Source: an uncultured Actinomycetota bacterium | GTDB taxonomy: Bacteria > Actinomycetota > Actinomycetes > Mycobacteriales > Jatrophihabitantaceae | Direction of reading: 5' to 3' | Assembly: GCA_963799045.1 (NCBI GenBank) | Contig: CAWCVN010000004.1 | Coordinates: forward strand, 552,645 to 576,644 | Length of the DNA: 24,000 bases | The notes under the pieces: model-generated | What the model was told of the DNA's origin: nothing | Seen by the model: the letters and a program-made list of their open reading frames with translations, nothing else | Database searches by the model: none | In this document: one piece after another, positions 1 through 21,718 of the stretch | Position numbering within the stretch: position 1 is the stretch's first letter | How the letters are laid out: each line of letters starts with the position of its first letter | Position numbers and translations under genes: made by a program

Positions 1-236
1 GTGTGCCGCGGCCCGGCCGGCGGGTGCCCGCTCGGCCTCGCCTCCCCCGGGTTCCGGCGCGGCGGTTGCTTGCGCATCGCCGTGCGCACCAGGCCCAACA
101 GCACGCCGGCGACCGGCACCGCGATGAGGAACCGGATCACGGCGACGTCCACGCCCACGGTCTGGTCGACCAACGCCCGCCAGAGCGTCGGTGCCGAGAA
201 CACCAGCGCACACAGCAGCACGGAACCGCGGAACAT
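1..236 (-). CDS. hypothetical small membrane protein, N-terminal part only (runs off the left edge)
   Basis: Absent from the ORF track because it leaves the window. The reverse complement from ATG at 236 reads MFRGSVLLCALVFSAPTLWRALVDQTVGVDVAVIRFLIAVPVAGVLLGLVRTAMRKQPPRRNPGE... It has two hydrophobic stretches and GC3-rich codons. Its ATG shares one base with the TGA of the upstream flhF-like gene (TGATG, 234-238). No family recognised, and it is not MinD/FlhG-like. Confidence 0.45.
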   Translation of the reverse strand, partial: MFRGSVLLCALVFSAPTLWRALVDQTVGVDVAVIRFLIAVPVAGVLLGLVRTAMRKQPPRRNPGEARPSGHPPAGPRH

Positions 237-1021
237 CACGCAGCCGACTCCTCGAGCCTGGTCAGCAGCAGCAGGGCCCAGTTCGTGCGGGTTGCCGGGC
301 GGCCGTCGAGAAGCGCAACCGGGACGTCCAGCTCCCAGACGCTTGCCGGGCTGGCCGTGCGCGCGGCGCCGGTGACGACGAGCGCAGTTGGAGTGCCCAG
401 TTCGTCCACGCTGCGCGCGGTGTCGCACGACTTGCGGGTGGCGTCCACGTGCAGCCAGAACGTGTCCGCGCCCAGCGCCCGGATGATCGACGCCGGCGGC
501 GGGCCGTCGGGCTCCTCGCCGTCGGCGTAATCGATCTCGTCGGTGCCGATGACGACCAGCGTGCTCTGGTTCGGCAACCGCGCCGGCGAGTTGTCCACCT
601 GCCGGGCGCGGTCGGCGATCGCGGTCGCGTGGCCGACATCGCGGATCTCATGGTCGTCCAGCTCCGCCACGCCGGGGCAGCGGTAGGTCCACACGTGCTC
701 GGGCAGCAGCGCCATCCGCTTGATCACGAGCCGGGCGGTGCGCGCGACCTGGGTCGGCGGCCCGGCCAGCACGACGATCTGGTCGGCTCCCTCCGGCAGC
801 GGCGCTGCCTCGGGCAGCGCGTTCACCAGCTGCTCGACGGCGGCGTAACGGTGCGGCGCGTCGGTGGGGATACGCGCGATCGGCACCCCCAGTTCGGTGA
901 GGCGGCGGCGCAGCGTGAGGTGCTCGTCCGCCTCGTGCAGGCCGGCGATGCTCAGCCTCGCGCGCGCGGCCTGATGCGCCGCGACCTTCTGCTGCGCGGC
1001 CGCGGCCGGCTCCGGCACGGA

Positions 1022-1090
1022 GGTGGGCTCGGCGACGGCTGGCGGGGTGGGCTCGGCGGCGGTGGGCTCGGCGGAGGTGGGCTCGGCGGC
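1022..1090 (-). repeat. 15-bp tandem repeat GGTGGGCTCGGCGNN (4 copies, one separated by 9 bp), encoding AEPT-type repeats
   Basis: Units at 1022-1036, 1046-1060, 1061-1075 and 1076-1090. The protein reads TAAEPTSAEPTAAEPTPPAVAEPT. Confidence 0.8.
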
Positions 1091-1120
1091 GGTTGCCGGG
1101 GTCGGCTCGTGCGCCTCATC

Positions 1121-1237
1121 GGCACTGGCGGCACTGGCGGCACTGACGCCACTGACGGCACTGACGGCACTGACGGCACTGACGGCACTGGCGGCACTGA
1201 CGGCACTGACGGCACTGGCGGCACTGACGGCACTGTC
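1121..1237 (-). repeat. 13 tandem copies of a 9-bp unit (GGCACTGAC / GGCACTGGC) inside the flhF-like linker
   Basis: Counted directly from the sequence as 13 x 9 bp with 1-2 variable positions. It encodes (S-A-V/S-A-A)n in the frame joined to the C-terminal domain, and (V-P-S/V-P-P)n in the frame of ORF 952..2103. Confidence 0.9.
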
Positions 1238-1854
1238 GCGGTTGTTCGACCGGCTGCTGGCGGTCCGGGTACGGGGCCGGCGGACGCGCACGGCCTTGCG
1301 CTTGGTGCCGGCTCGCCCGTCGGCGGCCGGCTCGGGCTGCTGGGCCGGTTGGGCCGGCTCGTGGCGGCCGGCTCGGTGGCGGCCGGCTCGGGTGGGTTCC
1401 CGGTCACGGCCGGCTCGTCGGTGCTCTGGGGAGTTGCGTCGATCGCGCTGCCGGCCGGGGTCTCCGCCGGGGTGTCGATCGTCGCGTCGGCCGGGGTCTT
1501 GGCCGGGGTGTCATCCGCCGTGGTGGACGCGGTGCTGGTTTTGGTGCTGCGGCGCGAGCGGGTGCTCGTCCGCTTGGCCGTCGACCGCGTCGTCTTGCTC
1601 GCCTTGGTCGTCGGTTCGCCCGTCGTCGCGGCGGCCGACTCGTCGGCCGGTTCGCTCGTCGGGGCGGTGGCCGGCGCGCTGGTGCTGCTCACGTCCGGTA
1701 CCTGCGCCGTGGCGGTGTCCTCGGCCCCGGACCGGCCCCCTGCTGCCTGTCCGGTGGCCGGGCCGGCTGCCTCGGCGGAGCTGTTGGCCCGCGTGCGGCG
1801 CGCGCGCGTGGTCTTGGTGGCGGCGGGGGGCTGCTCGGGCTGAACCGGCGCCTG

Positions 1855-1926
1855 CGCCTTGGCCGCGCGCCCCGCCTTGGCCGCGGGCTTCGCCTTGGCC
1901 GCGGGCTTCGCCTTGGCCGCGGACTT
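1855..1926 (-). repeat. 18-bp tandem repeat CGCCTTGGCCGCGGGCTT x4, encoding K-P-A-A-K-A repeats
   Basis: Units at 1855-1872 (variant), 1873-1890, 1891-1908 and 1909-1926. The protein reads KSAAKAKPAAKAKPAAKAGRAAKA. Confidence 0.85.
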
Positions 1927-2387
1927 CGGCTCCGGCTCCTGCGCACCAGCCGGTGCCGTGGCCACCAGCTCGGGCAGGTCCGGGGAGCTCACCGAGGTGG
2001 CGGCGGGGAGCGGGACCCCGCGCTCGGCGGCCTTGCGCGCGGCGATGTCGAGGAGCATGCGGGCGAACTCGACGTTGCCCTGCTCGGCGGCCAGGGCAGG
2101 CACGGCGTCGCTGTCTGTCCGGTTTCCACCATCTCGGCGGCGGCGATGAGCGCATCCAGCGGATCGGTCGGCTCGGTGGCCGGTGCTGTGGGTGCGAGCC
2201 GGCGCTGTCCGGCGGAGGCGGGAACGGTGCTCATCTCATCCTCGATCGTGTAGCGGACGGCGACTCGCGGACGGGCGAAGAATCCGAATACGCCACCTTC
2301 GCGTGCTGTGGCTGACGTCGACGACGCGCACCTGGCCGGGGATACTCCGCATCCAACTCGGCGAGCAGCTCGTCGAGGTCGTAGCCT

Positions 2388-4444
2388 TCACGAAACAAGG
2401 TCGCGGACGTCATCGATCATCCCAATCGCGTTGACGGCTACCGAGCCGGTCGACAGCTCGGTGTAGGACATGACAGGCAGTGCCGGCACCGACAGCCGCA
2501 CCAGGCGGCGAAGCGGCAGCCGGATCTGCGCCGCGCAGACGAGCACCGGCTTGTGGCCGCGCGCGGTCTCGGTGTTGTAGCGCTCGGTGATCGAGTTGAT
2601 CAGCGACTCGGCCAGGCCCGGGTCCAGGACGAGCTGCGCACCGCCGTCGCCGGGGCGCACCGACTCGAGCATCGATTGCTGCAGCCGGGGCTCGATGGTG
2701 AGCACGTCCAGCGTCCCGTCGCTGGCACAGGCTGGCGGCGATGGCGGGAGCCAGCGCCGCGCGGGCGGCCTCGATCAGCCGGTCGGGCTCGGTGCTCGAC
2801 CTTGGCGGCGACGGACAGCGCCTCGTAGATGCGCACGAGGTCGCGGACCGAGACGCCCTCGTCGAGCAGCGCGTGCAGCACCCGCTGGATCTCGCCGAGG
2901 CTGAGCAGCGCCGGGGTGAGGTCCTCGACGACCACCGGGTGGGTGCGCTTGAGCACGCGGGTCGCGGCGGCGACATCCTCGCGGCCGAGCAGGCGGCTCG
3001 CGTACTGGCGGACGACCTCCGACAGATGGGTGATGATCAGCGAGGAGCGGTCGACGACGGTCGCGCCCAGCAACTCGGCCTGGCCGCGCAGCTCGACGCG
3101 GCAGCCAGCGTCCGGCCAGGCCGAACACCGGTTCGCGGGCCGCGCGGCCCGGGCAGGCCGTCGAGGCCGTCACCGATAGCGAGGACCATGCCGACGGGGG
3201 CCTCGCCGCGGGCCAGCTCGACGCCGTTGATGTTGACCGCGTAGGTGGCGTGCGGCAGCGTCACGCTGTCGCGCGTGCGCACCGCGGGCATGACCACGCC
3301 CAGCTCGCCGGCCAGCGAGCGCCGCAGCGCCCGGACGCGGTCGAGCAGGTCGGCGCCGGGGCCGTCCACGAGGGGCACCAGGTCGGGGGACAGGACCAGC
3401 TCCAGCGGGTCCACGACCAGCTCGCCGAGCAGCGTCTCCTCGGCGTCGGGAGCCGGGAGCGTCGGCGGCGACCGCCTGGCCGTCGGCGCCCGCCTCGTCG
3501 GCCTGGCCGGGCTTGGGCAGCCGGGAGGCGAAGAAGAACAGCATCCCGCCGACGACGATGAACGGCAGCTTGGGCAGGCCGGGTACCAGGCACAGCAGCA
3601 GCGCCGCGCCGGCGGCGATCGTCAGCGCCCGGCGCTGGCTGCCCAGCTGGCGGGAGACGAGCGTGCCCATGTCGTCGGCGTCGCTCGAGCGCGTCACGAT
3701 CAGGCCGGTCGACACCGAGAGCAGCAGCGCGGGGATCTGGCTGACCAGGCCGTCGCCGACGCTGAGCAGGCTGTACTTCGACAGCGCCTGGCCGAACGTC
3801 AGGTGGTGCTGCACCATCCCGATGACGAACCCGCCGATCAGGTTGATGAAGGTGATCATGATGGCGGCGATCGCGTCACCCTTGACGAAGCGGGTCGCTC
3901 CGTCCATCGCGCCGTAGAAGTCCGCCTCGGCGGCGATCTCCGACCGGCGCTTGCGGGCGGTCGACTCGTCGATCAGGCCGGCGTTGAGGTCGGCGTCGAT
4001 CGCCATCTGCTTGCCGGGCATCGCGTCGAGGGTGAAGCGCGCGCCGACCTCGGCGACGCGGCCGGCGCCGTTGGTGATGACGACGAACTGGATGACCAGC
4101 AGGATCGCGAAGATCACCAGTCCGATGACGAGCGAGCCGCCGATGACGAAGTGACCGAAGGCGCTGATCACGTGGCCGGCGAAGCCGTCGGTGAGCACCA
4201 GCCGGGTGGCGCTGATGTTCAGCGCCAGGCGGAACAGCGTGGCCACCAGTAGCAGGGACGGGAAGCTGGAGAAGTCGAGGGCGCGCTGGACGTACATCGA
4301 CACCAGCACGACCAGCACGGCGCCGGTGATGTTGCCCGCGATCAGGATGTCGAGCAGGGTGGCCGGCATGGGCACGACCAGCATGACGACGATGGCGACG
4401 ACCCCGATGGGTACTGCCAGCTGACTCAGCCTGCTCGTCTTCAC
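2388..4444 (-). pseudogene. flhA: flagellar type III export gate protein FlhA; five +1 frame breaks as sequenced
   Basis: GTG start at 4444 with AGAGGGG upstream. The N-terminal TM domain is unmistakable (MKTSRLSQLAVPIGVV..., FTLDAMPGKQMAIDADLNAGLIDE, FYGAMDGATRFVKGDAIA, LLSVGDGLVSQIPALLLS). The cytoplasmic domain continues through five other ORF-track frames: DPLELVLSPDLVPLVD, REPVFGLAGRWLP, LLGATVVDRSSLIITHLSEVV, TEPDRLIEAARAALAP, and DVLTIEPRLQQSMLE...VLVCAAQIRLPLRRL. The 2057-nt span equals 683 codons plus stop plus 5 extra bases. Confidence 0.9.
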
Positions 4445-4470
4445 GGCGCCCCTCTTGCCAGTACAGGTTT

Positions 4471-4504
4471 GTCGGATACCTGTGCAATCTGTGGGGTATC
4501 CGAC
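4471..4504. promoter_or_regulatory. perfect 10-bp inverted repeat in the divergent flhA / GT2 control region
   Basis: GTCGGATACC (4471-4480), a 14-nt spacer, then GGTATCCGAC (4495-4504). It sits in the least GC-rich stretch of the window, 27-60 nt upstream of the flhA GTG and 54-110 nt upstream of the GT2 start candidates. Confidence 0.4.
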
Positions 4505-4557
4505 CCCGTACTACGCGCCGTCCTGGCAATCGTTCCATCGGCAGCGCCCGCAGCGAC

Positions 4558-5820
4558 TTGAGGACCCGGTCCGGGCCGACTCAACACCGGCGCCGGCGCG
4601 CCGATTCATTAGGCGTGCTGCTTGCTGCCTGTTTGATCGTCAAGGACGCCGCGTCGACCCTGCCCCGGTGCCTGAAGTCGCTGCGCGGGCTGGTCGAGGA
4701 GGTCGTCGTCTACGACACCGGCTCGAGCGACGACAGCTGCGCGATCGCCCGCGATCACGGCGCCACGGTCGTGCAGGGCTACTGGGACGACGACTTCGCC
4801 CGGGCCCGCAACGACGCGCTTGCCGCGGTGCGGGCGGACTGGGTGCTGAGCATCGACGCCGACGAGCACGTGGAGGGCGACCCGGACCGGCTGCGGTCCT
4901 ACGTCGCGGACCTGGCCGCCGCGGGTGCCGACGGCCCGGCCCTGGTGGCCCTCGAGCGGTCCGACATCCTGCCCGACGCGTCCGGTTCCTACCGCTTCCG
5001 CACCCCGCGGCTGTTCCGGCGGTCCGGCGCGGTGTGGGAGGGGCGGGTCCACGAGACCGTCGAGGTCCGTGACACCCACGGCCGCGAGAGCGCCGTCACC
5101 GGCTGCGACCCGGCGGTGCTGCGCCTCGTGCACGACGGGTACGCCGACGCCGCGACCGCCCGCGCCAAGGCACGGCGCAACGCCGCGATCGGCCTGAGCG
5201 AGGTCGAGCAGCTGCGGGCCGACCCGGCGACGCCCCCGGCCCGGCTCGCGCGGGCCCTGGTCGACCTCGGCCGCAGCCTGGTTGCCGCCAACGACTCGGC
5301 GTCCGCGGTGTACGCCTTCGAGGCCGTCCGGATCCTGGTCTCGGGCGGGCCGATGTGGCTGCGGGCGACCGACCACCTCGCCCGGGCCCGGCTGCAGACC
5401 GGCGACTTCGACGTCGCCCGCGAGCTGGTTGCCGAGCTGCGCGAGCGGGGCGCCGACTCCCAGTACTGCGACTGGCTGCTGGCCCAGGCCCTGGCGCAGA
5501 GCGGCTCGCCGGAGCGGGCCGCCGAGCTGCTCGCGGCCATCACCGAGCTGGAGGACACCGGCGGGCACTGCTACGACCTCGGGCCGGTGGTCGAGTTCGA
5601 GGCGCTGGCGCACGCCCTGAACGGTGACGTGCGGGCGGCGGTGCGCGCCATGCTGACGGCGATGATCCGCTACGGGCGCATCGGGGACCGCGCCGAGCTG
5701 GTGCGCAGCTGGTGGGGAGACGGCGACACCGGCGGCCTGGTGGCCGAGGCCCGCGGCGTCGGGGGGCCTCACCTCGAGCAGGTGCTGGCCGTGCTGGTCT
5801 CCCAGCCCGTCGGCGCCTGA
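4558..5820 (+). CDS. family 2 glycosyltransferase with a C-terminal helical-repeat (TPR-like) domain; candidate flagellin glycosyltransferase
   Basis: Only credible plus-strand gene, and it is intact. GT2 signature: ACLIVKDAASTLPRCLKSLRGLVEEVVVYDTGSSDDSCAIARDHGATV, WDDDFARARNDAL, and the DXD-type WVLSIDADEHV. The C-terminal ~200 aa is alpha-helical and repeat-like (LARALVDLGRSLVAAND..., LLAQALAQSGSPERAAELL). The track start is TTG at 4558. GTG at 4615 (VLLAACLIVKD) is an equally plausible true start. Confidence 0.8.
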   Translation: MRTRSGPTQHRRRRADSLGVLLAACLIVKDAASTLPRCLKSLRGLVEEVVVYDTGSSDDSCAIARDHGATVVQGYWDDDFARARNDALAAVRADWVLSIDADEHVEGDPDRLRSYVADLAAAGADGPALVALERSDILPDASGSYRFRTPRLFRRSGAVWEGRVHETVEVRDTHGRESAVTGCDPAVLRLVHDGYADAATARAKARRNAAIGLSEVEQLRADPATPPARLARALVDLGRSLVAANDSASAVYAFEAVRILVSGGPMWLRATDHLARARLQTGDFDVARELVAELRERGADSQYCDWLLAQALAQSGSPERAAELLAAITELEDTGGHCYDLGPVVEFEALAHALNGDVRAAVRAMLTAMIRYGRIGDRAELVRSWWGDGDTGGLVAEARGVGGPHLEQVLAVLVSQPVGA

Positions 5821-5841
5821 GCCCGGGTTCAGGGGCTCAGG
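5816..5841. terminator. short hairpin spanning both stop codons of the convergent GT2 and flhB genes
   Basis: CCTGAGCCC (5816-5824) and GGGCTCAGG (5833-5841) form a perfect 9-bp inverted repeat with an 8-nt loop. The two TGA stops (5818-5820 on plus, 5837-5839 on minus) are inside the arms. The intergenic gap is only 16 bp. Confidence 0.35.
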
Positions 5842-6962
5842 TGGTGGGGGCGAGGGTGCGGACGGTGTGGGTGCCCATCACCGAGCCGCGCTTGCGCAGC
5901 GTCATGATGAACGCCAGCACGGTGGCGACCGCCTTGTACAGCTCGGGCGGGATCTCCTGGCCGATCTCGACGCTCTGGTAGAGCGTGCGGGCCAGCGCGA
6001 CGTCGCGCACCATCGGCACCCGGTGCTTGTCGGCCAGCTCGCGGATCTTCGCCGCCAGGTGGTCGCCGCCCTTGGCCACGACACGCGGCGCGCCGCGCTT
6101 GGGCTCGTACCGCAGCGCCACCGCCACGTGCGTCGGGTTCACGACCACGACGTCGGCGTGCCTGATGTCGGCCAGCATCCGGTTGCGGGCCATCGCCAGC
6201 GCCCGCGCCCGCCGCTGGCCCTTGATGTGCGGGTCGCCCTCGGCGTTCTTGAACTCGTCCTTGACCTCCTGCTTGGTCATCTTCAGCGGACTTGTTGTTG
6301 CGGCGGTGCACGACGATGAAGTCGGCCGATCGGCCATCGACGATGCCGGCCGCGGCCGCGTAGCGCAGGACGACGAGCGCGGTGCCGGCCGCCGCACCCA
6401 GCAGCGTCGCCAGCGACATCGAGCCCGGCGCCGTACAGCGTCGGGATCAGCTGGCGGACCGCCACGTAGACGACGAGCGGCAGCAGCGCGGTCTTCAGCA
6501 GCGCCTTGACCAGCTCCCACAGCGCGTGGGGGCCGAAGATCCGCTTGATGCCCGAGAGGGGGTTCAGGCGCTTGACCTGCGGCTTGAGCGCCTTCGGGGA
6601 GAACCAGATGCCTCCCTGCAGCGCCACCGAGACGATCGCGATGCCGGCGATCAGCAGCACCATGGGCAGCAGGGCGGCGAAGGCCGATGACGCCGCAACG
6701 TCGGGCGTCGATCAGCGCGGTGGCGACGTCCGGGGTGCGGATCACCGCCCCGCGCGAACCAGGGAGTCGGTGGCGTTGCTCAGCACGGTGCGGACGACGC
6801 GCGGCAGCACGAATGTCGCCGCCATCAGCCCAGCCAGGACCCCAGCTCGCGGGTGTTGCCGATCTGCCCGTCCCGCCGCGCCTTCTTGCGACGCTTCGGG
6901 GTGGGCTTCTCGGTCTTCTCCCCGCCGCCACCTCCTCCGCCGCTCACCGGGCGCCGCTGCAT
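5837..6962 (-). pseudogene. flhB: flagellar export switch protein FlhB; five frame breaks as sequenced
   Basis: The N-terminus (ATG 6962 or GTG 6947) reads ..GGGGGGGEKTEKPTPKRRKKARRDGQIGNTRELGSW. TM segments follow: LMAATFVLPRVVRTVL and SSAFAALLPMVLLIAGIAIVSVALQGGIWFSPKALKPQVKRLNPLSGIKRIFG. The C-terminal domain reads LKMTKQEVKDEFKNAEGDPHIKGQRRA...VVVNPTHVAVALRY, which contains the NPTH autocleavage motif. The pieces lie in frames of ORFs 5837..6931, 6283..6663 and 5829..6419, plus two unlisted stretches. Confidence 0.9.
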
Positions 6963-6981
6963 CGGGGTTGCATCCGGGTGT

Positions 6982-7748
6982 TCATCCGGTCACCGCCGAG
7001 ACGAGCTGGTTGGCCCGGTCGGCCAGCTGCACGACCGTCTCCGGCATCAGGGTCAGGCCCAGGTCCGACCAGCAGCAGGGTCAGGCCGATCTTGATCGGG
7101 AAGCTCATCGTGAAGGCGTTCAGCTGCGGCGCGATGCGGTTCAGGACGCCCAGCGCGAGGTCGGCGATGAACAGCACGACGAGCAGCGGTCCGGCGATCT
7201 GCAGCGCGGAGACGAACATCTCGGGCATCGTGGAGGTCAGGGCGCTGGTCCAGCTGGGACAGCGACAGCGTGGCGTCCAGCGGGATCGCGTCGAACGTGC
7301 GCAGGAAGCCCTGGAAGATCAACAGGTGCGCGTCCGTGGCGAAGATCAGCGTCGTGCACAGCAGCGCGTAGAAGCGGCCGAGCACCGAGGTCATCGTCGT
7401 CGTCAACGGGTCGTACGCGGCCGAGAGCGAGAAGCCGCCGAACAGGTCGAGCAGCCCGCCGGCGACCTCCACCGCGCTGAACAGCAGCCGGGTGAGGAAG
7501 CCCAGCGCGGCGCCGACGAGGACCTGCTCGATCAGCGTGCCGGCGAGCGGGGACGATCTGCGCCGCCGGCGCGTGCAGGCGCGCTGGGCGGGAACGAGGG
7601 CGAGCGCGAGCCCGACCGAGAGGACCGTCTTCACCGTGGCCGGGATGCCCCCGGTCGCGACCGGCGGGGCGAAGGTCATCCACGCCAGCACCCGCGCGCT
7701 GACCAGCAGCAGCGCGACGAGCGAGGAGGTGGGGACGGCGAACTGCAC
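6982..7748 (-). pseudogene. fliR: flagellar export gate protein FliR; two +1 frame breaks as sequenced
   Basis: Sits after fliQ and before flhB. The N-terminal two thirds come from ORF 7053..7748 (LVALLLVSARVLAWMTFAPP..., LIEQVLVGAALGFLTRLLFSAVEVAGGLLD). It continues in ORF 6944..7228 (FVSALQIAGPLLVVLFIADLALGVLNRIAPQLNAFTMSFPIKIGLTLLLVG). The tail LGLTLMPETVVQLADRANQLVSAVTG is in a third frame, with stop TGA at 6982-6984. Confidence 0.85.
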
Positions 7749-7751
7749 GGC

Positions 7752-8021
7752 TCAGCCCAGCAGGCTCGGGATGGAGTGGTAGAGCTGCTGGGTGAAGCTG
7801 ACGATCGTGTCGAGCATCCAGTGGCCGCACAGCAGCAGCGCGATGCCGACGCCGACCGCCTTGGGCACGAAGGCGAGGGTGAACTCCTGGATCTGGGTCG
7901 CCGACTGGAACAGCGAGACGGCGAAGCCGATCACCAGCGCGGTCACCAGCGCCGGCGCGGCCAGCTTGGCGGCGACCAGCATGACCTGGAAGCCGATGTG
8001 GATGATCTGGGTGTCGGTCAT
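7752..8021 (-). CDS. fliQ: flagellar export gate protein FliQ (89 aa)
   Basis: ATG at 8021. Sequence is MTDTQIIHIGFQVMLVAAKLAAPALVTALVIGFAVSLFQSATQIQEFTLAFVPK... Size, two TM helices and the position between fliP and fliR are typical. The upstream part of track ORF 7752..8390 is a spurious extension. Confidence 0.9.
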   Translation of the reverse strand: MTDTQIIHIGFQVMLVAAKLAAPALVTALVIGFAVSLFQSATQIQEFTLAFVPKAVGVGIALLLCGHWMLDTIVSFTQQLYHSIPSLLG

Positions 8022-8026
8022 GGGCG

Positions 8027-8977
8027 CTAACCCGATCCGTAGCTCTGGACGAGGGAGGTGATGATCAGGCCCCAGCCGTCGACGAGGACGAACAGCAGCA
8101 GCTTGAACGGAAGCGACACCGAGACCGGCGGGAGCATCATCATGCCGAGGCTCATCAGCGACGACGACACGACAAGATCGATGATCACGAACGGGATGTA
8201 GACCACGAAGCCGATGATCATCGCGGCGCGCAGCTCCGAGAGGACGAACGCCGGGATGAGCGTCGTCAGCTGAACCTGTGACTTGTCCGGCGGGTTGGGC
8301 AGCTTCCCGGCGCGGAGCATGAGCGCGATCTCCTGCGGACGGGTGTGCGCGAGCATGAAATCGCGCAGGGGCGCGACGCCGGCCTTCCACGCCACGTCCC
8401 GGGTCTTGGTCCCGTCCAGGTATGGATGGATGCCGTTGTCGTAGACCTTGCTCAGGACCGGACCCATAACGAACAGGCTCAGGAACAGCGACAGGCCCGC
8501 CAGCACCTGGTTGGGCGGCACGGACTGCAGCCCGAGCGCGTTTCGCGTCAGCGACAGGACGACGAAGATCTTGGTGAAGCTGGTGACCAGTAGCAGCAGC
8601 GACGGTGCGACAGCCAGCACGGTCACCAGCATCAGCAAGGTGATCGACTGGCTCGGCTTGCCGCCGACGTTGACCGTCACCGAGCCCGAGCCGCTGCTGC
8701 CGTCGGGGGCGGCCGGGCTGGACGGGGCCGTCGGGCCGGTCGGGGCGGTCGGCGCGGCGAGCGGCTGCGCGTAGGTGCCGGTGAGCGGCGCTGCTTGCGC
8801 GGCGAGCTGGGTGCCGGCGGCGGCGGGCGTGGCCGCGTGCGCTGAGCCGGATCCGTGACCGTAGATCAGTGCGGTGGCGGCCAGTAGCGCCAGCAGGAAC
8901 AGCGCCAGCCGTGATGCAGTTCGTCCTGTCGTGACCTCGAGGCGTCCGTGCCCTTCTGTGGCCCGACCGGGCCTCAC
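8027..8977 (-). CDS. fliP: flagellar export gate protein FliP
   Basis: Conserved core: FTKIFVVLSLTRNALGLQSVPPNQVLAGLSLFLSLFVMGPV, FVLSELRAAMIIGFVVYIPFVIIDLVVSSSLMSLGMMMLPPVSVSLPFKLLLFVLVDGW. I prefer GTG at 8977, which forms a GTGA overlap with the fliO stop. Codons between 8978 and 9025 have poor GC3 in this frame. The track start is ATG at 9025. Confidence 0.88.
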   Translation of the reverse strand: MRPGRATEGHGRLEVTTGRTASRLALFLLALLAATALIYGHGSGSAHAATPAAAGTQLAAQAAPLTGTYAQPLAAPTAPTGPTAPSSPAAPDGSSGSGSVTVNVGGKPSQSITLLMLVTVLAVAPSLLLLVTSFTKIFVVLSLTRNALGLQSVPPNQVLAGLSLFLSLFVMGPVLSKVYDNGIHPYLDGTKTRDVAWKAGVAPLRDFMLAHTRPQEIALMLRAGKLPNPPDKSQVQLTTLIPAFVLSELRAAMIIGFVVYIPFVIIDLVVSSSLMSLGMMMLPPVSVSLPFKLLLFVLVDGWGLIITSLVQSYGSG

Positions 8978-9449
8978 GTCCGCCGAGCGGTCAGGTCGCG
9001 CAGCGACTCGAGGGTTTGCCGCCACGTCGCCGGGGAGAGGGCCGAGCCGGTCAACGGCCCGCGGGGCGCGCCGGGCATCCCGGCCGCGGACAGCGCCGCG
9101 CCGCTGGGTGCGGGCGCCGGGCGGTCGGCCGCGGCGCGGGGGGCAGGCGCGGCGCGCGCGCCGGCTTCGCCGCCTCGGCCTGCAGTGCGTCCTCCACCGC
9201 GTCGAGGTCGGCGTCGCCGAGCACGCTGACCTGCCCGTCGGTGATGCCGACGATCAGGGCCTGGTCGAGCACGCGCACCACCGCGATCGAGGTCGAACGC
9301 GACAGCTGCTGGCGCGACAGCAGCTCGATCAGCTTGCCGTTCTTGCCGCGCGCACCGCTGCGCTTCATTCGCCGGGCGATCAGCCACATCAGGCCGAGGA
9401 CCGCGGAGAGCGAGATCAGCAAGCGCCCCACCAGCGCTACCGTGTTCAT
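8974..9449 (-). pseudogene. fliO: FliO-type flagellar export accessory protein; one frame break as sequenced
   Basis: ATG at 9449. A single TM helix (LVGRLLISLSAVLGLMWLIARRM) is followed by LIELLSRQQLSRSTSIAVVRVLDQALIVGITDGQVSVLG. It sits between fliN and fliP. The last ~17 codons in the other frame (WRQTLESLRDLTARRT, stop at 8974) have high GC3 and end in a GTGA overlap with fliP. This implies a -1 break somewhere in the Pro/Ala-rich stretch 9060-9165. The alternative is an intact 132-aa product ending at 9051. Confidence 0.65.
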
Positions 9450-9451
9450 GG

Positions 9452-10180
9452 CTACCGCGGTGAGTCGTCCGTGATGACCTGGGTGATCCGCAGGCCGTAG
9501 TTCTCGTCGACCACGACCACCTCGCCGCGCGCGATCAGCCGACCGTTGACGAACAGGTCGGCCGGCGCGCCGGCGACGCGGTCGAGCTCGATGACGGCGC
9601 CGGAGCGCAGCGTGAGCAGGTCGTTGACCGTCATCCGGGCCCGGCCGAGCTCGGCGGTGGCCTCCATCTCGACACCGCGCAGCAGGTCGAGCCGGTCGAC
9701 CTGGGGTGCCGCGGCGGCGGGTTGGTCGGCGGCCTCGGCGGGACCGGCGTCGATGCCGATCGCCAGCGCGGCGCGCACGGACTGGGCGCCCTGCAGCGGC
9801 ACCAGGGCCGCGTCGTCGCGGGCGAAGACCCGGCTCAGCGCCAGCCGCGGCTCCAGCTGCTGCAGCTGGCCGAGCGCGAGCGAGCCGACGGCGACCGACA
9901 CGGCCTCGAGCGTGGGCGCGAGCGCCGCGGCGAGCTCCAGCGGGCCGATGGTCGCCTCGCGCAGCGCCGCGGCCAGATCGTCGTCGATCAGCAGGGCCAG
10001 CTCGCCGGTCACCGCGCCGGTGAACGGGGCCACCAGCGCGTGGGCGAGGCTGTCCGCGACACCGTGCTCGGTGGTCGGCTGACCCACGGTCAGCGGCTCG
10101 CTGCTCGCGAGGTTCACCACCACGCTCGCGGCCGCCGTGGCGGCCAGTTCCGTGGCTGCGATCGGGATGACGGTGGTCAC
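9452..10180 (-). CDS. fliN: flagellar C-ring protein FliN with an extended N-terminal domain
   Basis: C-terminal SpoA/FliN domain: LDLLRGVEMEATAELGRARMTVNDLLTLRSGAVIELDRVAGAPADLFVNGRLIARGEVVVVDENYGLRITQVI. GTG start at 10180 forms a GTGA overlap with the fliM stop. Confidence 0.88.
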   Translation of the reverse strand: MTTVIPIAATELAATAAASVVVNLASSEPLTVGQPTTEHGVADSLAHALVAPFTGAVTGELALLIDDDLAAALREATIGPLELAAALAPTLEAVSVAVGSLALGQLQQLEPRLALSRVFARDDAALVPLQGAQSVRAALAIGIDAGPAEAADQPAAAAPQVDRLDLLRGVEMEATAELGRARMTVNDLLTLRSGAVIELDRVAGAPADLFVNGRLIARGEVVVVDENYGLRITQVITDDSPR

Positions 10181-11127
10181 GCGTGCTCCTGGGTTGTGTT
10201 GACGATCAGTGCGGCCAGCCGGTTGCCGGACCGGCCGGCGATGGCGGATCCGAAGGTGACGCCGCCGGCCTGGACCGTGAGCGGGGCGCCGGCGCGGTGG
10301 CTGAGGGTGATCAGGTCGCCTTCGGCGAGGGTGAGGATCCGGTCGGGACTCAGGCGGATGGGTGCGAAGTGGACGGCGACGTCCAGCGGGACGTCACCGA
10401 GGCGCTCGCGCAGCTTGCGGGCGCCGGCCTCGACCGTCGCGGGGTCGGACTGCTCGACCTCCTCGCGGGGCCGCTGCGCGATCAGCCGCGGCAGCAACGG
10501 CGCGAGCGGCAGGCACAGCGTCAGCCGGCAGCTCTCCGCTCCGATCGCCATCTCGAACGAGCCGACGACGACCGCGTCCGTGGCGCTCGCGGCCTGCACG
10601 AACTGGGGGTTGTATTCGATGGGGCCGAGCGAGGGCAGCACCGGGGCGATCGGCTCGAGCGAGTAGCGCAGCGTGGCGACCAGCTGGTCGAGCAGGCCAC
10701 GGATGAGCGTGGTCTCGATGTCGGTGAGCGTGCGCGGGCTCTGCTGGCCGCCCGGTCCGCCGAGCATGTGGTCGATCGCCGCCAGGGCGACCGGCAGCGA
10801 GAACTCGACCACGCCGGTGCCGGCCAGCGGCGGCAGGCTGAGCGGGCACATCAGGGTCTGGTTCTCCAGCCCGGTGATGTACTCGTCGTAGCTCTCCTGG
10901 CTGATGTCGGTGATCGTCACCTGGCAGACCTGGCGCAGGCTGCTCGTGAGCAGCGTGGTCATCCGCCGGGCGAACGTCTCGTAGGCCATCTGCAGCGCGC
11001 GGATGTGCTCACGGGACAGCTTCGACGGGCGCCGGAAGTCGTAGGCCACGATCTCGTCGTTGCGCCGCCGTCCGCGGGGGTCCAGGGATCCCACGGCCGC
11101 TGGTCCGTGCGCGGAGATGGTTGGCAC
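10177..11127 (-). CDS. fliM: flagellar C-ring switch protein FliM
   Basis: 316 aa. Matching segments: IVAYDFRRPSKLSREHIRALQMAYETFARRMTTLLTSSLRQ, and a C-terminal SpoA-like part (VHFAPIRLSPDRILTLAEGDLITLSH...GVTFGSAIAGRSGNRLAALI). It lies between fliL and fliN. Confidence 0.88.
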   Translation of the reverse strand: MPTISAHGPAAVGSLDPRGRRRNDEIVAYDFRRPSKLSREHIRALQMAYETFARRMTTLLTSSLRQVCQVTITDISQESYDEYITGLENQTLMCPLSLPPLAGTGVVEFSLPVALAAIDHMLGGPGGQQSPRTLTDIETTLIRGLLDQLVATLRYSLEPIAPVLPSLGPIEYNPQFVQAASATDAVVVGSFEMAIGAESCRLTLCLPLAPLLPRLIAQRPREEVEQSDPATVEAGARKLRERLGDVPLDVAVHFAPIRLSPDRILTLAEGDLITLSHRAGAPLTVQAGGVTFGSAIAGRSGNRLAALIVNTTQEHA

Positions 11128-11222
11128 GCCCGATCAATCGGCAGCGGGCACACGCACCTGAGCTTGATGTGAAGAAAGCGGCAACAACGGCCCCGGGTGG
11201 GGGAGCCGCCCCGGAATTGCGG

Positions 11223-11747
11223 TCACTGTGCAACGAATTGGGTCAGGAATGCGGCGTACACCTCCCCCGGGTAGGCCTTCTTCAGCTGGGTGAGCAGGTC
11301 CGCGGTCAGCTTCTTGCGCTCGGCGTTGGTGTCGATCAGGGTGATCTGCCGGTTGCTGAACTCGTCGATGACCAGCTCCGCGGCGTGGCTGGTGTCGAAG
11401 GAGGTCGCGCTGGCCTTGCCCTTCACCAGCTGCACCGCGACCGCCACCTTCAGGTAGTGCCCGGCCGCGAGGTTCACCGTCATGGCGTCGATCGGAACCA
11501 CGTCTCCGCCGGTCGGCGGGGCAGCCTTGTGCGGCATCAGGAACTTGTAGGCGCCGCCGCCGACGACGAGCACGCCCACGACCGCCAGGATGAACTTCTT
11601 CGACTTGAACAGCCCGCCCTTGCCCACGCGCTTGCCCTTTTTCTTGGCGCCGTTCTCGTCGCCATCGGGGGCGCCCTCGCCGGCCTTGCCGTTGGCCGAC
11701 GGCTTGCTGCCGGTCGTGCGGCTCTGGGGCGCAGTGGTGGTGCTCAT
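11223..11747 (-). CDS. fliL: flagellar basal-body-associated protein FliL
   Basis: 174 aa. A charged N-terminus is followed by one TM helix (FILAVVGVLVVGGGAY), then VNLAAGHYLKVAVAVQL...AELVIDEFSN...LLTQLKKAY. GGAGA RBS upstream. Position after motB matches the spirochete-type order. Confidence 0.8.
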   Translation of the reverse strand: MSTTTAPQSRTTGSKPSANGKAGEGAPDGDENGAKKKGKRVGKGGLFKSKKFILAVVGVLVVGGGAYKFLMPHKAAPPTGGDVVPIDAMTVNLAAGHYLKVAVAVQLVKGKASATSFDTSHAAELVIDEFSNRQITLIDTNAERKKLTADLLTQLKKAYPGEVYAAFLTQFVAQ

Positions 11748-11775
11748 TTCGATCTCCGATTCGGTGTAGCCGGGT

Positions 11776-12777
11776 TCACGGGGTCGAGGTGCCGGAGTTG
11801 CTGTTCGCGACCCGCTGGGCGGAGTGCTGGGCGGCTTGGATGGCCGATTCCAGGGCGTCGCCGGAGGTGTCCGGCAGCCCCGACATCACGACGATGTCCA
11901 CCCGGCGATTGCGGGTCACCGATCGCGGGTCGCTCGGCGACAGCAGCGGATCCAGGTCGTTGTAGCCGGTAGCCGACAGCCGCGACTCGGCGATGCGATG
12001 GGCGACCATGAACCGGACCACCGCCGACGCGCGAGCCGAGGACAGCTCCCAGCCGCTCGGGTAGGGGTAGGTGCTGGCCGGCAGCTGGTTGGTGTAGCCG
12101 TTGACCGCGATCTGGTTGGTCACCGTCGCGAGCTCGGGCGCGATCACCCCCAGGATCTCCTGACCACCCGGCTGGAGCACGGCGCTGTTGCCCTTGAAGA
12201 CCAGCGCGTTGGTCACGATGGTCATGATCAGGCCGCGGCGGTCCATCGAGAACTGCACGGCGCCGTGCAGGCCGTGCCGGTCGAGCGCGTGGTTGACCGC
12301 CTGCTCCAGCTTTCGGAAGTTCTGCACCTGCTGCTGGGCCATGGTGTCCAGGTTGGCGGGGACGGTGGTCTGACTGCCCTGGTTGCTCCGGTTCGCCGTA
12401 GCCTGCTGGCCCCCCTGCCCGGTCGAGTTCTGCAGCGGGTTCGCCGCCGTCCCCGGGATGATGGTGTCGGTGCCGCTCTGGGACGTGGTGTTGTCCAGCA
12501 GGCCCTGCCCGCCGTCGAGCACGCTCTTGGGGCCCTCCCCGAAGGCGGAGGCCAGTGACTGGCGCAGCTGAATGAACTTCGAGGTGTTCACGACCGAGAT
12601 CGAGAACAGCACGATGAACAGCACCAGCAGCAAGGTGAGCATGTCGGCGTAGGTCACCAGCCAGCGCTCCGCGCCGCCCGCCTCCTCCCCGCCGTGGTCG
12701 GCCCTGGTCCGCCTGCGGCGGCGGGCCTTGGACATCGCGGACGGGTGGCCGGACATGCGGGCAGGACGGGCAGCCAT
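11776..12777 (-). CDS. motB: stator protein MotB (OmpA-like peptidoglycan-binding C-terminus)
   Basis: I place the start at ATG 12777, sharing one base with the motA TGA (TGATG). The TM segment carries the conserved Asp: ERWLVTYADMLTLLLVLFIVLF. The OmpA-like end reads GYTNQLP...SGWELSSARASAVVRFM...ATGYNDLDPL...NRRVDIVV. Track ORF 11776..12981 over-extends into motA. Confidence 0.88.
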   Translation of the reverse strand: MAARPARMSGHPSAMSKARRRRRTRADHGGEEAGGAERWLVTYADMLTLLLVLFIVLFSISVVNTSKFIQLRQSLASAFGEGPKSVLDGGQGLLDNTTSQSGTDTIIPGTAANPLQNSTGQGGQQATANRSNQGSQTTVPANLDTMAQQQVQNFRKLEQAVNHALDRHGLHGAVQFSMDRRGLIMTIVTNALVFKGNSAVLQPGGQEILGVIAPELATVTNQIAVNGYTNQLPASTYPYPSGWELSSARASAVVRFMVAHRIAESRLSATGYNDLDPLLSPSDPRSVTRNRRVDIVVMSGLPDTSGDALESAIQAAQHSAQRVANSNSGTSTP

Positions 12778-13550
12778 CAGGCCACGTCCTTCTGCTGCTC
12801 CTGTGCCGGCGCGTGCAGCATGCTCTGCAGCTTCTGCGCGATCATGCGCGGGTTCGAGCCGGCCTGGATCGCCAGCACGCCCTCGATGGTCAGCTCCATC
12901 TGCTCGCACTCGAGCTCGCTGACCCGCTTGAGCCGGTTGGCCATCGGGAACCAGAAGATATTGGCCGACATGACGCCCCACAGGGTCGCGACGAACGCGC
13001 CGGCGATCTTCTCGCCCAGGGTGCTGGTGTCGCTGAGGCTGCCCAGCACGTGGACCAGGCCGATGACGGTACCGATGATGCCGATCGTGGGCGCGTAGCC
13101 GCCCATGTCGTGGAACAGCTTCGCGGCGGCGCCGTCGGCGGCGCGCTTGGCGTCGACCTCGGCGCCGAGCAACTCGGCGACCTCGTCGGCGTCGGTGCCG
13201 TCGATCGCGAGCTCCAGCGCCCGCTTGAGGAACGGGTCGTCGACCTTGGCGACGTCGCCCTCGAGCGCCAGCAGGCCTTCGCGGCGGGCCCGCTCGGCCA
13301 TCTTGACGATGACGCCGACGTTGTCGTGCGCCGCGGACGGCTTTGCCTTGATCGCCCGCATCAGCGACTTGGGCATGTTCTTGGCCTCGTGCATCAGCGT
13401 GCCGGCCATCGCCGCGCCGATCGTGCCGCCGAAGACGAGAATCATCGGCGGGATGAGGAACAGGGAGGCGGGATTGCCGCCTTCCATGATCATCGAGCCG
13501 AGGATCGCGACGAGCGCCAGGCCGATGCCGATGAGCGTCGACGGATCCAT
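12777..13550 (-). CDS. motA: stator protein MotA
   Basis: 257 aa. Matching segments: MDPSTLIGIGLALVAILGSMIMEGGNP..., GGYAPTIGIIGTVIGLVHVL, GAFVATLWGVMSANIFWFPMANRLK. Its ATG shares one base with the flbD stop. Confidence 0.9.
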   Translation of the reverse strand: MDPSTLIGIGLALVAILGSMIMEGGNPASLFLIPPMILVFGGTIGAAMAGTLMHEAKNMPKSLMRAIKAKPSAAHDNVGVIVKMAERARREGLLALEGDVAKVDDPFLKRALELAIDGTDADEVAELLGAEVDAKRAADGAAAKLFHDMGGYAPTIGIIGTVIGLVHVLGSLSDTSTLGEKIAGAFVATLWGVMSANIFWFPMANRLKRVSELECEQMELTIEGVLAIQAGSNPRMIAQKLQSMLHAPAQEQQKDVA

Positions 13551-13834
13551 CAGGGCTGCTCCCCCAGGCGGAATGCGACGACGGTGCCTCCGGGCTCCGA
13601 GTTGTTCACCTTGACCGGCTGCGGCCGTCGAGCTTCCGGGGGGACCTGCGCGGCCGCGATGATGTCCGCGCGGTAGTTCAAGATCAGTGAGGTGAGCTCG
13701 TCCAGCGACTCCCGGATGACGTACTTGCTGCCGTTGACCAGGGTCACGACCGTGTCCGGTGTCGCCTCCGCCCGCTCGATGAGGTCGGGGTTGAGCGCGA
13801 AGACCGGTCCGCTCAGTCTCGTCAGCTTCAACAC
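13550..13834 (-). CDS. flbD: FlbD family flagellar protein
   Basis: GTG at 13834 is preceded by AAGGA 8 nt upstream. Sequence VLKLTRLSGPVFALNPDLIERAEATPDTVVTLVNGSKYVIRESLDELTSLILNYR matches the FlbD pattern (LTRLNG..., PDT..., NG.KY.V.ES). It lies just before motA, as in spirochete and Firmicute clusters. The track ORF start at 13900 is probably an over-extension. Confidence 0.8.
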   Translation of the reverse strand: MLKLTRLSGPVFALNPDLIERAEATPDTVVTLVNGSKYVIRESLDELTSLILNYRADIIAAAQVPPEARRPQPVKVNNSEPGGTVVAFRLGEQP

Positions 13835-13883
13835 GGCATCCGTCCTTGGAAGTCGGGGGGCCGTCCGTGGCCCCACGTGGTAG

Positions 13884-13910
13884 TTATCGGCCGATTTCAC
13901 AGCGCCTTGA
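13884..13910 (-). promoter_or_regulatory. candidate sigma-28 (FliA/SigD/WhiG-type) promoter for flbD-motA-motB-fliL...
   Basis: The minus strand reads TCAA-N15-GCCGATAA, with the -35 at 13910-13907 and the -10 at 13891-13884. The -10 is an exact match to the classical GCCGATAA box, and the spacing matches TAAA-N15-GCCGATAA. It lies in the 159-bp gap between flgE and flbD, about 50 nt upstream of the flbD GTG. Confidence 0.55.
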
Positions 13911-13937
13911 GGCGGGCCACGACGGCCTACACAGGTG

Positions 13938-13965
13938 TATGAACGCCTCCCGGCCCCGTAATCGC
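13938..13965 (-). terminator. GC-rich hairpin downstream of flgE (candidate intrinsic terminator or mRNA-stabilising stem)
   Basis: Perfect inverted repeat TCCCGGCCCCG / CGGGGCCGGGA (13938-13948 with 13955-13965) and a 6-nt loop, 29 nt after the flgE stop. There is no clear U-tract (the following RNA is GGCGUUCAUACACC), which is common in high-GC actinobacteria. Confidence 0.45.
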
Positions 13966-13993
13966 GGGGCCGGGACGGACGTCAAAGATCAGC

Positions 13994-14851
13994 TCACGGG
14001 GACAGCTGGACCAGCGTCTGCAGCACCTGGTCGGAGGTGGTGATCACCTTGGAGTTCGCCTGGAAGCCGCGCTCGGAGATGATCAGGTTGGTCAGCTCCT
14101 TGGCCAGGTCGACGTTGCTCATCTCGACGTAGCCGGTGGTGATGGTGCCGACCCCGGTCGCGCTCGGTGTGCCCGAGGCCGCCGTCTGCACGTACTCCGA
14201 GTCGCCGGCCTTGAGCAGCCCGTCGGGGTTGGCGAAGGACTGCAGGTCGACCTTCAGCGTCGGGGAGGCAGCGGTGATCGGGGCGCCGGTGACGTCGACC
14301 GGGTTGCCGGTGGCGTCGACACCGGTGATCGTGCCGTCGGCCGCGATGTTGTAGTCCACCCACTTGTTGCTCGGGTTCACCGACGTGAGCGGCAGTTGGA
14401 TCACGCCGTAGGTCGGCGTCGTCGCCGGCGGGGTGATCGTGGCGCCCATCAGCTCGGCGCCGTCCGGGTTGACCAGGTGGCCCTGGTCGTCGACGGAGAA
14501 GTTGCCGGCCCGGGTGTACATGGTCTGGCCGTTCTTGGTGACGGTGAAGAAGCCGTCGCCGTTGATGAGCATGTTGCTGCGCACGCCGGTCGGCTGGTTC
14601 GAGCCCTGGGTGAAGTTCATGGTGGTGCCCGCGACCTGGACACCGAGCCCGATCTGCACGGGGTTGGTGCCGCCGTTGGTCCCCGTCGCGGCGCCGCCGC
14701 CGGAGATCGTCTGGCTGAGCGTGTCCTCGAACTGGACCGTGCTGGACTTGTAGCCGGTGGTGTTGACGTTGGCGATGTTGTTCGCGGTGACGTCCAGCAT
14801 CTGCTGGTGCGCGGAGAGCCCGGAGATTCCGGTGAACAGGGACCGCAGCAT
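13994..14851 (-). CDS. flgE: flagellar hook protein FlgE (compact, 285 aa)
   Basis: N-terminus MLRSLFTGISGLSAHQQMLDVTANNIANVNTTGYK. Central GDGFFTV...YTRAGNFSVDDQGHLVNPDG. C-terminus GYVEMSNVDLAKELTNLIISERGFQANSKVITTSDQVLQTL. AGGAG RBS upstream. Confidence 0.9.
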   Translation of the reverse strand: MLRSLFTGISGLSAHQQMLDVTANNIANVNTTGYKSSTVQFEDTLSQTISGGGAATGTNGGTNPVQIGLGVQVAGTTMNFTQGSNQPTGVRSNMLINGDGFFTVTKNGQTMYTRAGNFSVDDQGHLVNPDGAELMGATITPPATTPTYGVIQLPLTSVNPSNKWVDYNIAADGTITGVDATGNPVDVTGAPITAASPTLKVDLQSFANPDGLLKAGDSEYVQTAASGTPSATGVGTITTGYVEMSNVDLAKELTNLIISERGFQANSKVITTSDQVLQTLVQLSP

Positions 14852-14914
14852 GGTTACTCCTCGAGTTGTGTGCGGTGGATTGCGGTGGTGGGGTGCCGGT
14901 GGGCCGGCGCCGGT

Positions 14915-21713: not shown

Positions 21714-21718
21714 GGTCC

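What the first reader, a model, noticed from the sequence alone, without database searches (positions are those of the whole stretch)
236..9449. About 17 single-base frame breaks packed into flhF-like, flhA, flhB, fliR (plus fliO), while the embedded GT2 gene and ~16 kb of neighbouring flagellar genes are clean
Each of these genes can be followed only by hopping between ORF-track frames, and the protein segments themselves stay well conserved with no internal stops. Approximate break sites are as follows. flhA: 3449-3456, 3140-3155, 3095-3105, 2789-2803 and 2715-2740; all five require skipping one base. flhB: 6825-6832 and 6741-6756 (both -1), then 6700-6709, 6415-6426 and 6284-6293 (all +1). 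fliR: 7250-7262 and 7061-7070 (both +1). flhF-like: 2334-2344 and 2298-2306 (+1), 2100-2108 and 1358-1364 (-1). fliO: one -1 break somewhere in 9060-9165. Several sit in C or G runs, such as TATCCCCGG, GACGCCCGA and CCCGGGC. By contrast, fliQ, fliP, fliN, fliM, fliL, motAB, flbD, flgE, flgD, fliK, the hydrolase, fliJ, fliI, fliH, fliG, fliF and fliE all read end to end. So does the 1.26-kb plus-strand GT2 gene lying between flhA and flhB. Random sequencing error and uniform post-inactivation decay would both spread hits evenly, so the positional clustering needs explaining. One explanation is a locally poor assembly, with homopolymer indels in a low-coverage stretch. Another is very recent, repeated hits on the export gate of a lineage losing motility. 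A third is a localised mutational process. If the breaks are real, the cell keeps an intact rotor, stator, hook and ATPase but has no functional fT3SS gate.
Basis: partly seen in the sequence, partly recalled or inferred. Interest (0 to 1): 0.75.

Follow-up and report, generated by a model that had tools for sequence, protein, structure and literature searches.

The report
Clustered frameshifts are probably assembly errors
The many single-base frame breaks in the flagellar export genes are really in the deposited sequence, but they look like uncorrected long-read assembly errors, so the genes are probably intact in the organism.

Summary
A frameshift-aware alignment to intact orthologues finds 19 breaks: 13 one-base insertions, 1 two-base insertion and 5 one-base deletions. 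They lie in flhF-like, flhA, flhB, fliR and fliO. There are none in GT2, fliQ, fliP or the ~14.5 kb from fliN to fliF. The clustering is far beyond chance.

The interpretation favours an artefact.
- The repaired proteins are as conserved as their intact neighbours, with no excess lineage-specific replacements.
- The broken half of FlhA has 1 change at 159 invariant columns.
- There are no nonsense codons and no larger deletions.
- There is no shared motif at the break sites.
- All six short-read-assembled relatives are intact.
- Five other unpolished "contig_N" records from ENA+NCBI metagenome assemblies show the same insertion-biased clustered breaks. The genes hit differ, and include housekeeping genes such as class II fructose-bisphosphate aldolase.
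- A record whose "_np1212" name suffix points to short-read polishing is clean.

The window's source is a 578-kb unannotated NCBI/ENA contig, which fits that class, though this link is inferred.

Real pseudogenisation of the export gate is not excluded without reads, but it is unlikely (about 0.1). Interest is low.

The parts
239..2413 (-). flhF-like gene. It has a conserved N-terminus, a long repeat-rich linker and a conserved C-terminal domain without a P-loop. Frame breaks at ~2341 (+1), ~2304 (+1) and ~2104 (-1), plus one more (-1) somewhere in 964-1990.
   Evidence: Frameshift-aware alignment and tblastn against the 546-aa L081 orthologue. No Pfam hit for the C-terminal ORF. Tandem repeats in the linker.
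2388..4444 (-). flhA (FHIPEP). The N-terminal membrane part (3455-4444) is clean. There are five one-base insertions at ~3454, ~3143, ~3098, ~2797 and ~2727. The repaired protein is 90% identical to L081 FlhA.
4558..5820 (+). GT2 glycosyltransferase with C-terminal TPR, intact, on the opposite strand between flhA and flhB.
   Evidence: Pfam. No frame break against L081 GT2. The arrangement is conserved in relatives.
5837..6935 (-). flhB (Bac_export_2). Deletions at ~6829 and ~6753, insertions at ~6711, ~6429 and ~6289. The C-terminal domain with the NPTH motif (5837-6286) is clean.
6982..7748 (-). fliR (Bac_export_1). A +2 insertion at ~7586 and a +1 at ~7552 form a pair that scrambles 11 codons. 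Further +1 insertions at ~7248 and ~7064.
7752..9025 (-). fliQ (7752-8021) and fliP (8027 to ~8896/9025), both intact, lying between the break clusters.
8974..9449 (-). fliO. One one-base deletion at ~9124, inside a Pro/Ala-rich stretch of variable length.
9452..23631 (-). fliN, fliM, fliL, motB, motA, flbD, flgE, flgD, fliK, NlpC/P60-SLT hydrolase, fliJ, fliI, fliH, fliG, fliF and fliE. No frame breaks were found in the genes checked against references (fliN to fliF). fliE was judged only from its intact ORF.

Best explanation
The frame breaks are errors left in the consensus of a long-read metagenome assembly. They are not mutations in the organism.

In some stretches of the 578-kb source contig the consensus kept error at about the level of raw reads (0.4-0.7% here). 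Nearly all of it is single-base indels, mostly insertions. Possible causes are few supporting reads or reads from differing co-existing strains piled together; I could not tell which. In this window two such stretches (about 1.4-3.5 kb and 6.3-7.6 kb) and one isolated site (9124) happen to fall on flhF-like, flhA, flhB, fliR and fliO. On this reading the cell has an intact flagellar export gate.

Shown: the breaks exist and are clustered; the repaired genes show no decay; the same signature occurs in other unpolished long contigs, in other genes.

Inferred: the window's source belongs to that class of assembly, and low depth or strain heterogeneity is the local cause.
For: 1. No relaxed constraint. 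With L082 as outgroup, window-specific versus L081-specific amino-acid changes are 69 vs 94 in the four broken genes tested (FlhA, FlhB, FliR, FliO; flhF-like was not included) and 104 vs 88 in six intact genes. In the FlhA half that carries all five breaks, the window differs at 1 of 159 columns invariant in six other actinobacterial FlhAs (a conservative I>V). The clean half differs at 4 of 174.

2. Lesion spectrum. There are 19 indels of 1-2 nt, no in-frame stops, and no larger frame-disrupting deletions. Several insertions are not homopolymer extensions, which is unlike polymerase slippage.

3. Relatives. All six short-read-assembled relatives (L081, L084-L088) have full-length flhB (366 aa), fliR (253), fliQ, fliP and fliO. 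flhA is full length (676 aa) in L081 and called at 686-701 aa in L084-L087, where it runs off the locus; L088 ends before these genes.

4. Same signature elsewhere. These are unpolished long 'contig_N' records of ENA(+NCBI) metagenome assemblies.
- L082: flgE 7, flbD ~5, motA 7 breaks; about 18 kb otherwise nearly clean.
- L090: about 40 breaks from fliL to flhA, roughly 35 insertions to 6 deletions; flanking ORFs of 748 and 754 aa are intact.
- L089: one break each in fliQ, fliR and flhA.
- L093: 9 insertions in a PALP-family enzyme gene, 3 in class II fructose-bisphosphate aldolase.
- L091: one each in MFS, FBA, epimerase and AAA16.
Insertion bias and local clustering recur in all of them, and the genes hit differ.

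5. L092 has a name ending in _np1212. That suffix appears on ONT assemblies polished with short reads by NextPolish (PMC11628659). L092 has no breaks in the same genes.

The 424-aa FlhA fragment is itself a called gene of that record. L089-L093 show the same record pattern.

7. Published precedent. In collapsed long-read assemblies 98% of assembly errors were indels or complex variants, and nearby allelic variants caused misaligned reads and INDEL errors that truncated ORFs (PMC8445201).
Against: - No reads, depth or quality values are available, so the errors are not directly shown.
- The source record could not be retrieved. Its sequencing platform and its membership in the error-prone series are therefore inferred.
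- No same-species genome exists in the collections. All window proteins looked up except MotA are singleton 90% clusters, and the best FlhA C-terminal hit is 86% identical. The sites therefore cannot be compared with a sister strain.
- A very recent real event would also leave no substitution signal.
- L089 and L090 were found through FlhA fragments, so they are a biased sample. L082, L091 and L093 were not.
Confidence: 0.85

Rival explanations
1. Real, very recent pseudogenisation. A lineage that is losing motility took many independent frameshift hits in the export-gate genes while the rotor, stator, hook and ATPase genes are still intact.
For: The breaks are in the deposited sequence and the source's own gene calls are fragments. 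They fall in a functionally coherent set of genes. Three related long-contig loci (L091-L093) lack a flagellar cluster beside RNase J, so motility loss may occur in this family.
Against: Five independent hits in one gene serve no purpose once the first has inactivated it, so the later ones must be neutral. Neutral time enough for 4 more indels per kb should also bring many substitutions, stop codons and larger deletions, and none are seen. The insertion bias and the non-homopolymer insertions are unlike bacterial spontaneous indels (own knowledge). The same pattern hits essential housekeeping genes in sibling assemblies. All short-read relatives are intact.
Confidence: 0.08
2. A real, localised, insertion-biased mutational process, such as error-prone repair synthesis over 1-2 kb tracts, acted on this region.
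For: The clustering is strong and the lesions are indels only, without substitutions.
Against: No shared sequence motif occurs at the sites. I know of no process that produces mainly +1 non-homopolymer insertions in tracts (own knowledge). Identical tract-like clusters occur in unrelated genes of other unpolished long-read contigs and not in polished or short-read ones, which points to the method rather than the cell.
Confidence: 0.03
3. Programmed recoding, by ribosomal frameshifting or transcriptional slippage, restores the reading frames.
For: The repaired frames are perfectly conserved and contain no stops.
Against: Recoding would be needed at 19 sites in both directions. No slippery heptamer or common motif lies within +-8 nt of any site. 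No orthologue has a frameshift at any of these positions.
Confidence: 0.005

Closest known systems
Gene-fragmenting indel errors in long-read (Nanopore / PacBio CLR) assemblies, including collapsed-haplotype consensus errors
   Same: The lesions are only small indels. ORFs are split while the conceptual protein stays fully conserved. The distribution along the contig is uneven. The breaks are absent from short-read or polished assemblies. PMC8445201 reports that 98% of assembly errors were indels or complex variants, and that nearby allelic variants caused INDEL errors that truncated ORFs.
   Different: The platform, depth and polishing history of the window's source are unknown here. The errors are not concentrated in long homopolymers, which is the textbook Nanopore pattern.
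Flagellar gene decay in non-motile bacterial lineages (true pseudogenes)
   Same: Disrupted flagellar type III export genes sit next to intact-looking neighbours.
   Different: There is no excess of amino-acid replacements, no nonsense codons and no larger deletions. Individual genes carry many single-base hits.
Actinobacterial flagellar gene cluster of Jatrophihabitantaceae (L081, L084-L088)
   Same: The gene order is the same from fliE to flhA and the flhF-like gene. A GT2 gene lies on the opposite strand between flhB and flhA. Protein identity is 68-92%.
   Different: The relatives carry a second opposite-strand gene (360-418 aa) next to GT2 that the window lacks. The window's flhF-like linker is about 200 codons longer.

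Membership tests
True bacterial pseudogenes (gene decay) | Reading frame disrupted relative to intact orthologues | tested here: met
   19 frame breaks in five genes.
True bacterial pseudogenes (gene decay) | Relaxed selective constraint on the disrupted lineage: excess replacements and changes at invariant sites | tested here: not met
   Window-specific versus L081-specific changes are 69 vs 94 in four broken genes and 104 vs 88 in intact genes. The broken FlhA half has 1 change at 159 invariant columns.
True bacterial pseudogenes (gene decay) | Mixed lesion spectrum (nonsense codons, deletions of various sizes) when many lesions have accumulated | tested here: not met
   Only 1-2 nt indels. 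No in-frame stops in the repaired frames.
True bacterial pseudogenes (gene decay) | Lesions supported by reads or shared with sister strains | not testable with these tools
   No reads are available. No relative is closer than about 90% protein identity.
Long-read assembly consensus indel errors | Lesions are small indels in otherwise conserved coding sequence | tested here: met
Long-read assembly consensus indel errors | The same signature occurs in other contigs of the same assembly type, in unrelated genes including essential ones | tested here: met
   L082, L089 and L090, L091 and L093, including class II FBA.
Long-read assembly consensus indel errors | Absent from short-read or short-read-polished assemblies of relatives | tested here: met
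   L081 and L084-L088 are intact. L092 (_np1212) is clean.
Long-read assembly consensus indel errors | The source assembly is long-read based and unpolished at these sites, with low depth or mixed reads there | tested here: inconclusive
   Only indirect evidence: a 578-kb contig, an NCBI+ENA record without protein names, and the same pattern as L089-L093. The record itself was not retrievable.
Programmed frameshifting / transcriptional slippage | A slippery or shared motif at the site, and the shift conserved in orthologues | tested here: not met
   No motif and no XXXYYYZ heptamer. The orthologues are unshifted.
Flagellar type III export gate genes (FlhA, FlhB, FliR, FliO) | Pfam FHIPEP, Bac_export_2, Bac_export_1 and FliO domains above the curated cut-off | tested here: met
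   The repaired FlhB retains the NPTH motif.

The most novel reading that the evidence does not exclude
The indels are real. A soil actinomycete of the Jatrophihabitantaceae family has just inactivated its flagellar export gate (flhA, flhB, fliR, fliO, flhF-like) through a burst of tract-like, insertion-biased single-base mutations. This would imply an undescribed localised frameshift-generating process.
Probability: 0.04. Interest if true: 0.6.

Novelty: not a real feature. Interest (0 to 1): 0.08.

Why it matters
If this is an artefact, as argued, the main value is as a warning. Unpolished long-read metagenome contigs in public archives carry kilobase-scale tracts of insertion-biased frameshifts. 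These tracts mimic coordinated pseudogenisation of a functional module, and they would mislead calls of motility loss, pseudogene counts and protein databases. The 424-aa FlhA fragment is already in the protein collection. If the breaks were real, they would point to a new localised mutational process and a very recent loss of flagellar export, but the evidence is against that.

Tried and rejected
1. I tried to retrieve the source contig, or a sister strain, to compare the sites directly. Exact look-ups of FliQ, the FlhA fragment and MotA found no encoding contig. Cluster look-up showed the proteins exist on one 578-kb NCBI/ENA contig, but as singleton clusters. The best FlhA C-terminal hit was 86% identical.

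2. I tested whether the breaks sit in variable neighbourhoods, as expected if strain SNPs are merged into insertions. The trend was weak (mean z 0.55, t 2.15, n=16) and is confounded by the aligner placing gaps at variable columns. This is inconclusive.

3. I tested whether the break clusters differ in nucleotide identity to L081, which would suggest cross-recruitment of reads from relatives. They do not.

4. Homopolymer association is only slight. There is no motif or slippery-site enrichment.

5. A crude multi-frame tblastn screen of all 88 loci was too insensitive, since it missed L082.

6. The last protein search, with RNase J, did not test fragmentation directly, because full-length hits dominate the list. 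It did lead to the unbiased loci L091-L093.

7. A first tblastn with all stop-free ORFs of relatives was swamped by spurious matches between high-GC ORFs.
Full report
WHAT IS THERE. The window is about 72% G+C. It carries an actinobacterial flagellar cluster on the minus strand, running from fliE to flhA and a flhF-like gene. One GT2/TPR glycosyltransferase gene lies on the plus strand between flhA and flhB.

The closest relatives are metagenome contigs of Jatrophihabitantaceae with the same gene order: L081, L084, L085, L086, L087 and L088. Protein identity to them is 68-92%. In the Micromonosporaceae loci L003, L004 and L007, flhB is followed directly by flhA, with no GT2 between them.

CHECKING THE OBSERVATION. 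Pfam finds FlhA split over four ORFs in different frames. I wrote a protein-to-DNA dynamic-programming aligner that allows one- and two-base frame slips, and aligned the intact L081 proteins to the window.

- flhA has five one-base insertions.
- flhB has two one-base deletions and three insertions.
- fliR has two single insertions. Removing the pair turns "AQRACTRRRRRS" into "AARLHAPAAQIV", which matches the orthologues.
- fliO has one deletion.
- The flhF-like gene has two insertions and two deletions. One of the deletions lies at an uncertain position inside a repeat-rich linker.

Nucleotide alignments to two to five relatives place the same window-specific indels. G+C third-position phase tracking reproduces the frame steps with no reference at all.

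The same aligner finds nothing in GT2, FliQ, FliP, FliN, FliM, FliL, MotB, MotA, FlbD, FlgE, FlgD, FliK (80% G+C), the hydrolase, FliJ, FliI, FliG or FliF. The clustering is extreme. None of 20,000 random placements reaches the observed dispersion, and the probability of an empty 13.6 kb to the right of 9124 is 2e-8.

ARE THE GENES DECAYING? They are not.

- After repair, FlhA is 90% identical to L081, FlhB 76%, FliR 79% and FliO 67%. Intact neighbours fall in the same range: MotA 92%, FliP 82%, FliM 75%, FliL 70%.
- In a three-taxon comparison with L082 as outgroup, window-specific versus L081-specific replacements are 69 vs 94 in the four broken genes tested and 104 vs 88 in six intact genes.
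- In the FlhA half that carries all five breaks, the window differs at only 1 of 159 columns that are invariant in six other actinobacterial FlhAs. In the clean half it differs at 4 of 174.
- The repaired frames contain no stop codons, and no frame-disrupting deletion longer than two bases was found.

Once the first frameshift has killed a gene, further hits are neutral. Four more indels per kilobase without any accompanying substitutions does not fit ordinary neutral decay. That last step rests on general knowledge of mutation spectra and was not computed here.

IS IT A PROPERTY OF THE SEQUENCE OR OF THE METHOD? No motif and no slippery heptamer is shared by the sites, and homopolymer association is slight. 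Several insertions are plainly not homopolymer extensions.

The decisive comparison is with other assemblies.

- The six short-read-assembled relatives have full-length export-gate genes wherever these fall within the contig.
- L082 was reached through the intact GT2 gene, so it was not chosen for being broken. It is an ENA record named contig_37028. It has 7 breaks in flgE, about 5 in flbD and 7 in motA within 1.8 kb, while its flhA, flhB, fliR, fliP and fliQ are clean.
- L090 (contig_5812, 3.0 Mb) has about 40 breaks from fliL to flhA, roughly 35 insertions to 6 deletions. The ORFs of 748 and 754 aa next to that stretch are intact.
- L089 (contig_2828, 2.4 Mb) has one break each in fliQ, fliR and flhA.
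- L091 and L093 were reached through intact RNase J and contain no flagellar genes. They carry the same one-base insertions in housekeeping genes. L093 has nine in a PALP-family enzyme gene within 1.2 kb and three in class II fructose-bisphosphate aldolase. L091 has one each in MFS, FBA, epimerase and AAA16.
- L092 has a name ending in _np1212. That suffix is seen on Nanopore assemblies polished with short reads by NextPolish (PMC11628659). L092 is clean in those same genes.

Insertion-biased, tract-like frameshifts are therefore a recurring feature of these unpolished "contig_N" ENA+NCBI records, whatever gene lies under them.

The window's source fits that class. It is a single 578,006-bp contig held by NCBI and ENA, its proteins are unnamed, and the 424-aa FlhA fragment is one of its called genes. 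I could not retrieve the record itself, so this link is an inference.

MECHANISM. The most likely explanation is local failure of the long-read consensus. The local density of 0.4-0.7% indels is near raw-read level. The cause would be either thin read support or a pile-up of reads from differing co-existing strains. A published case shows collapsed long-read assemblies acquiring INDEL errors where nearby allelic variants shift read alignments, with 98% of assembly errors being indels or complex variants (PMC8445201). My test for enrichment of breaks at variable positions gave only a weak and possibly biased signal. The choice between low depth and strain heterogeneity therefore stays open.

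RIVALS. Real recent multi-hit pseudogenisation (about 0.08) and a real localised insertion-biased mutational process (about 0.03) cannot be excluded without reads. Both are contradicted by the lack of any decay signal and by the same pattern in essential genes of sibling assemblies. Programmed recoding is effectively excluded.

VERDICT. The breaks are really in the sequence and really clustered, but they are most probably not a feature of the organism. Interest is low. The practical lesson is that error tracts in unpolished long-read MAG contigs can imitate module-specific gene loss.

Noticed in passing
window 4558-5820 (+); L081 8372-10831; L084-L087: A GT2 glycosyltransferase with a TPR tail sits between flhA and flhB on the opposite strand. 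This arrangement is conserved in Jatrophihabitantaceae relatives, which also carry a second opposite-strand gene of 360-418 aa with no Pfam hit that the window lacks. In L082 the GT2 gene is co-directional. In the Micromonosporaceae loci L003, L004 and L007, flhB abuts flhA. It may be a flagellin glycosyltransferase; this was not tested.
   Followed up: partly
window 239-2413 (-): The flhF-like protein has no Pfam hit. Its N-terminus (about 55 aa) and C-terminal domain (about 240 aa, without a recognisable P-loop) are conserved with the 546-aa L081 protein. The Ala/Pro/Thr/Ser/Lys-rich linker between them is about 200 codons longer in the window. The linker is built of tandem repeats: 9 nt x 12.9 at 1120-1235, 18 nt x 4.1 at 1855-1928, and others.
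   Followed up: partly
L093 1128-2309 and 4479-4707; L091 6014, 7363, 8330, 19510; L090 883-7949: Other public long contigs (ENA ERZ25039533, ERZ25039594, ERZ25039595 and ERZ25039483) contain kilobase tracts of single-base insertions. These fragment housekeeping genes (a PALP-family enzyme, class II FBA, MFS, epimerase) and flagellar genes. The fragments are present in protein databases as separate entries.
   Followed up: yes
L092 (ena:ERZ26871208:contig_61640_np1212): The record-name suffix _np1212 matches the naming seen on NextPolish short-read-polished assemblies. This locus is free of frame breaks and served as the clean reference for L091 and L093.
   Followed up: partly
L091, L092, L093: In three Jatrophihabitans-like long contigs, the RNase J / VTT-domain / epimerase neighbourhood has no flagellar cluster. 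In L081 and L082 that neighbourhood lies directly downstream of flhA and the flhF-like gene. Presence of the flagellar cluster therefore varies within the family.
   Followed up: no
window 17033-18061 (-): An NlpC/P60 + SLT double-domain hydrolase lies inside the flagellar cluster between fliJ and fliK. It is probably a FlgJ-like peptidoglycan hydrolase. It is conserved in L084-L086 and L088.
   Followed up: no
L093 17224-18489: A group II intron-type reverse transcriptase (RVT_1 + GIIM) lies close to the end of the 1.94-Mb contig.
   Followed up: no
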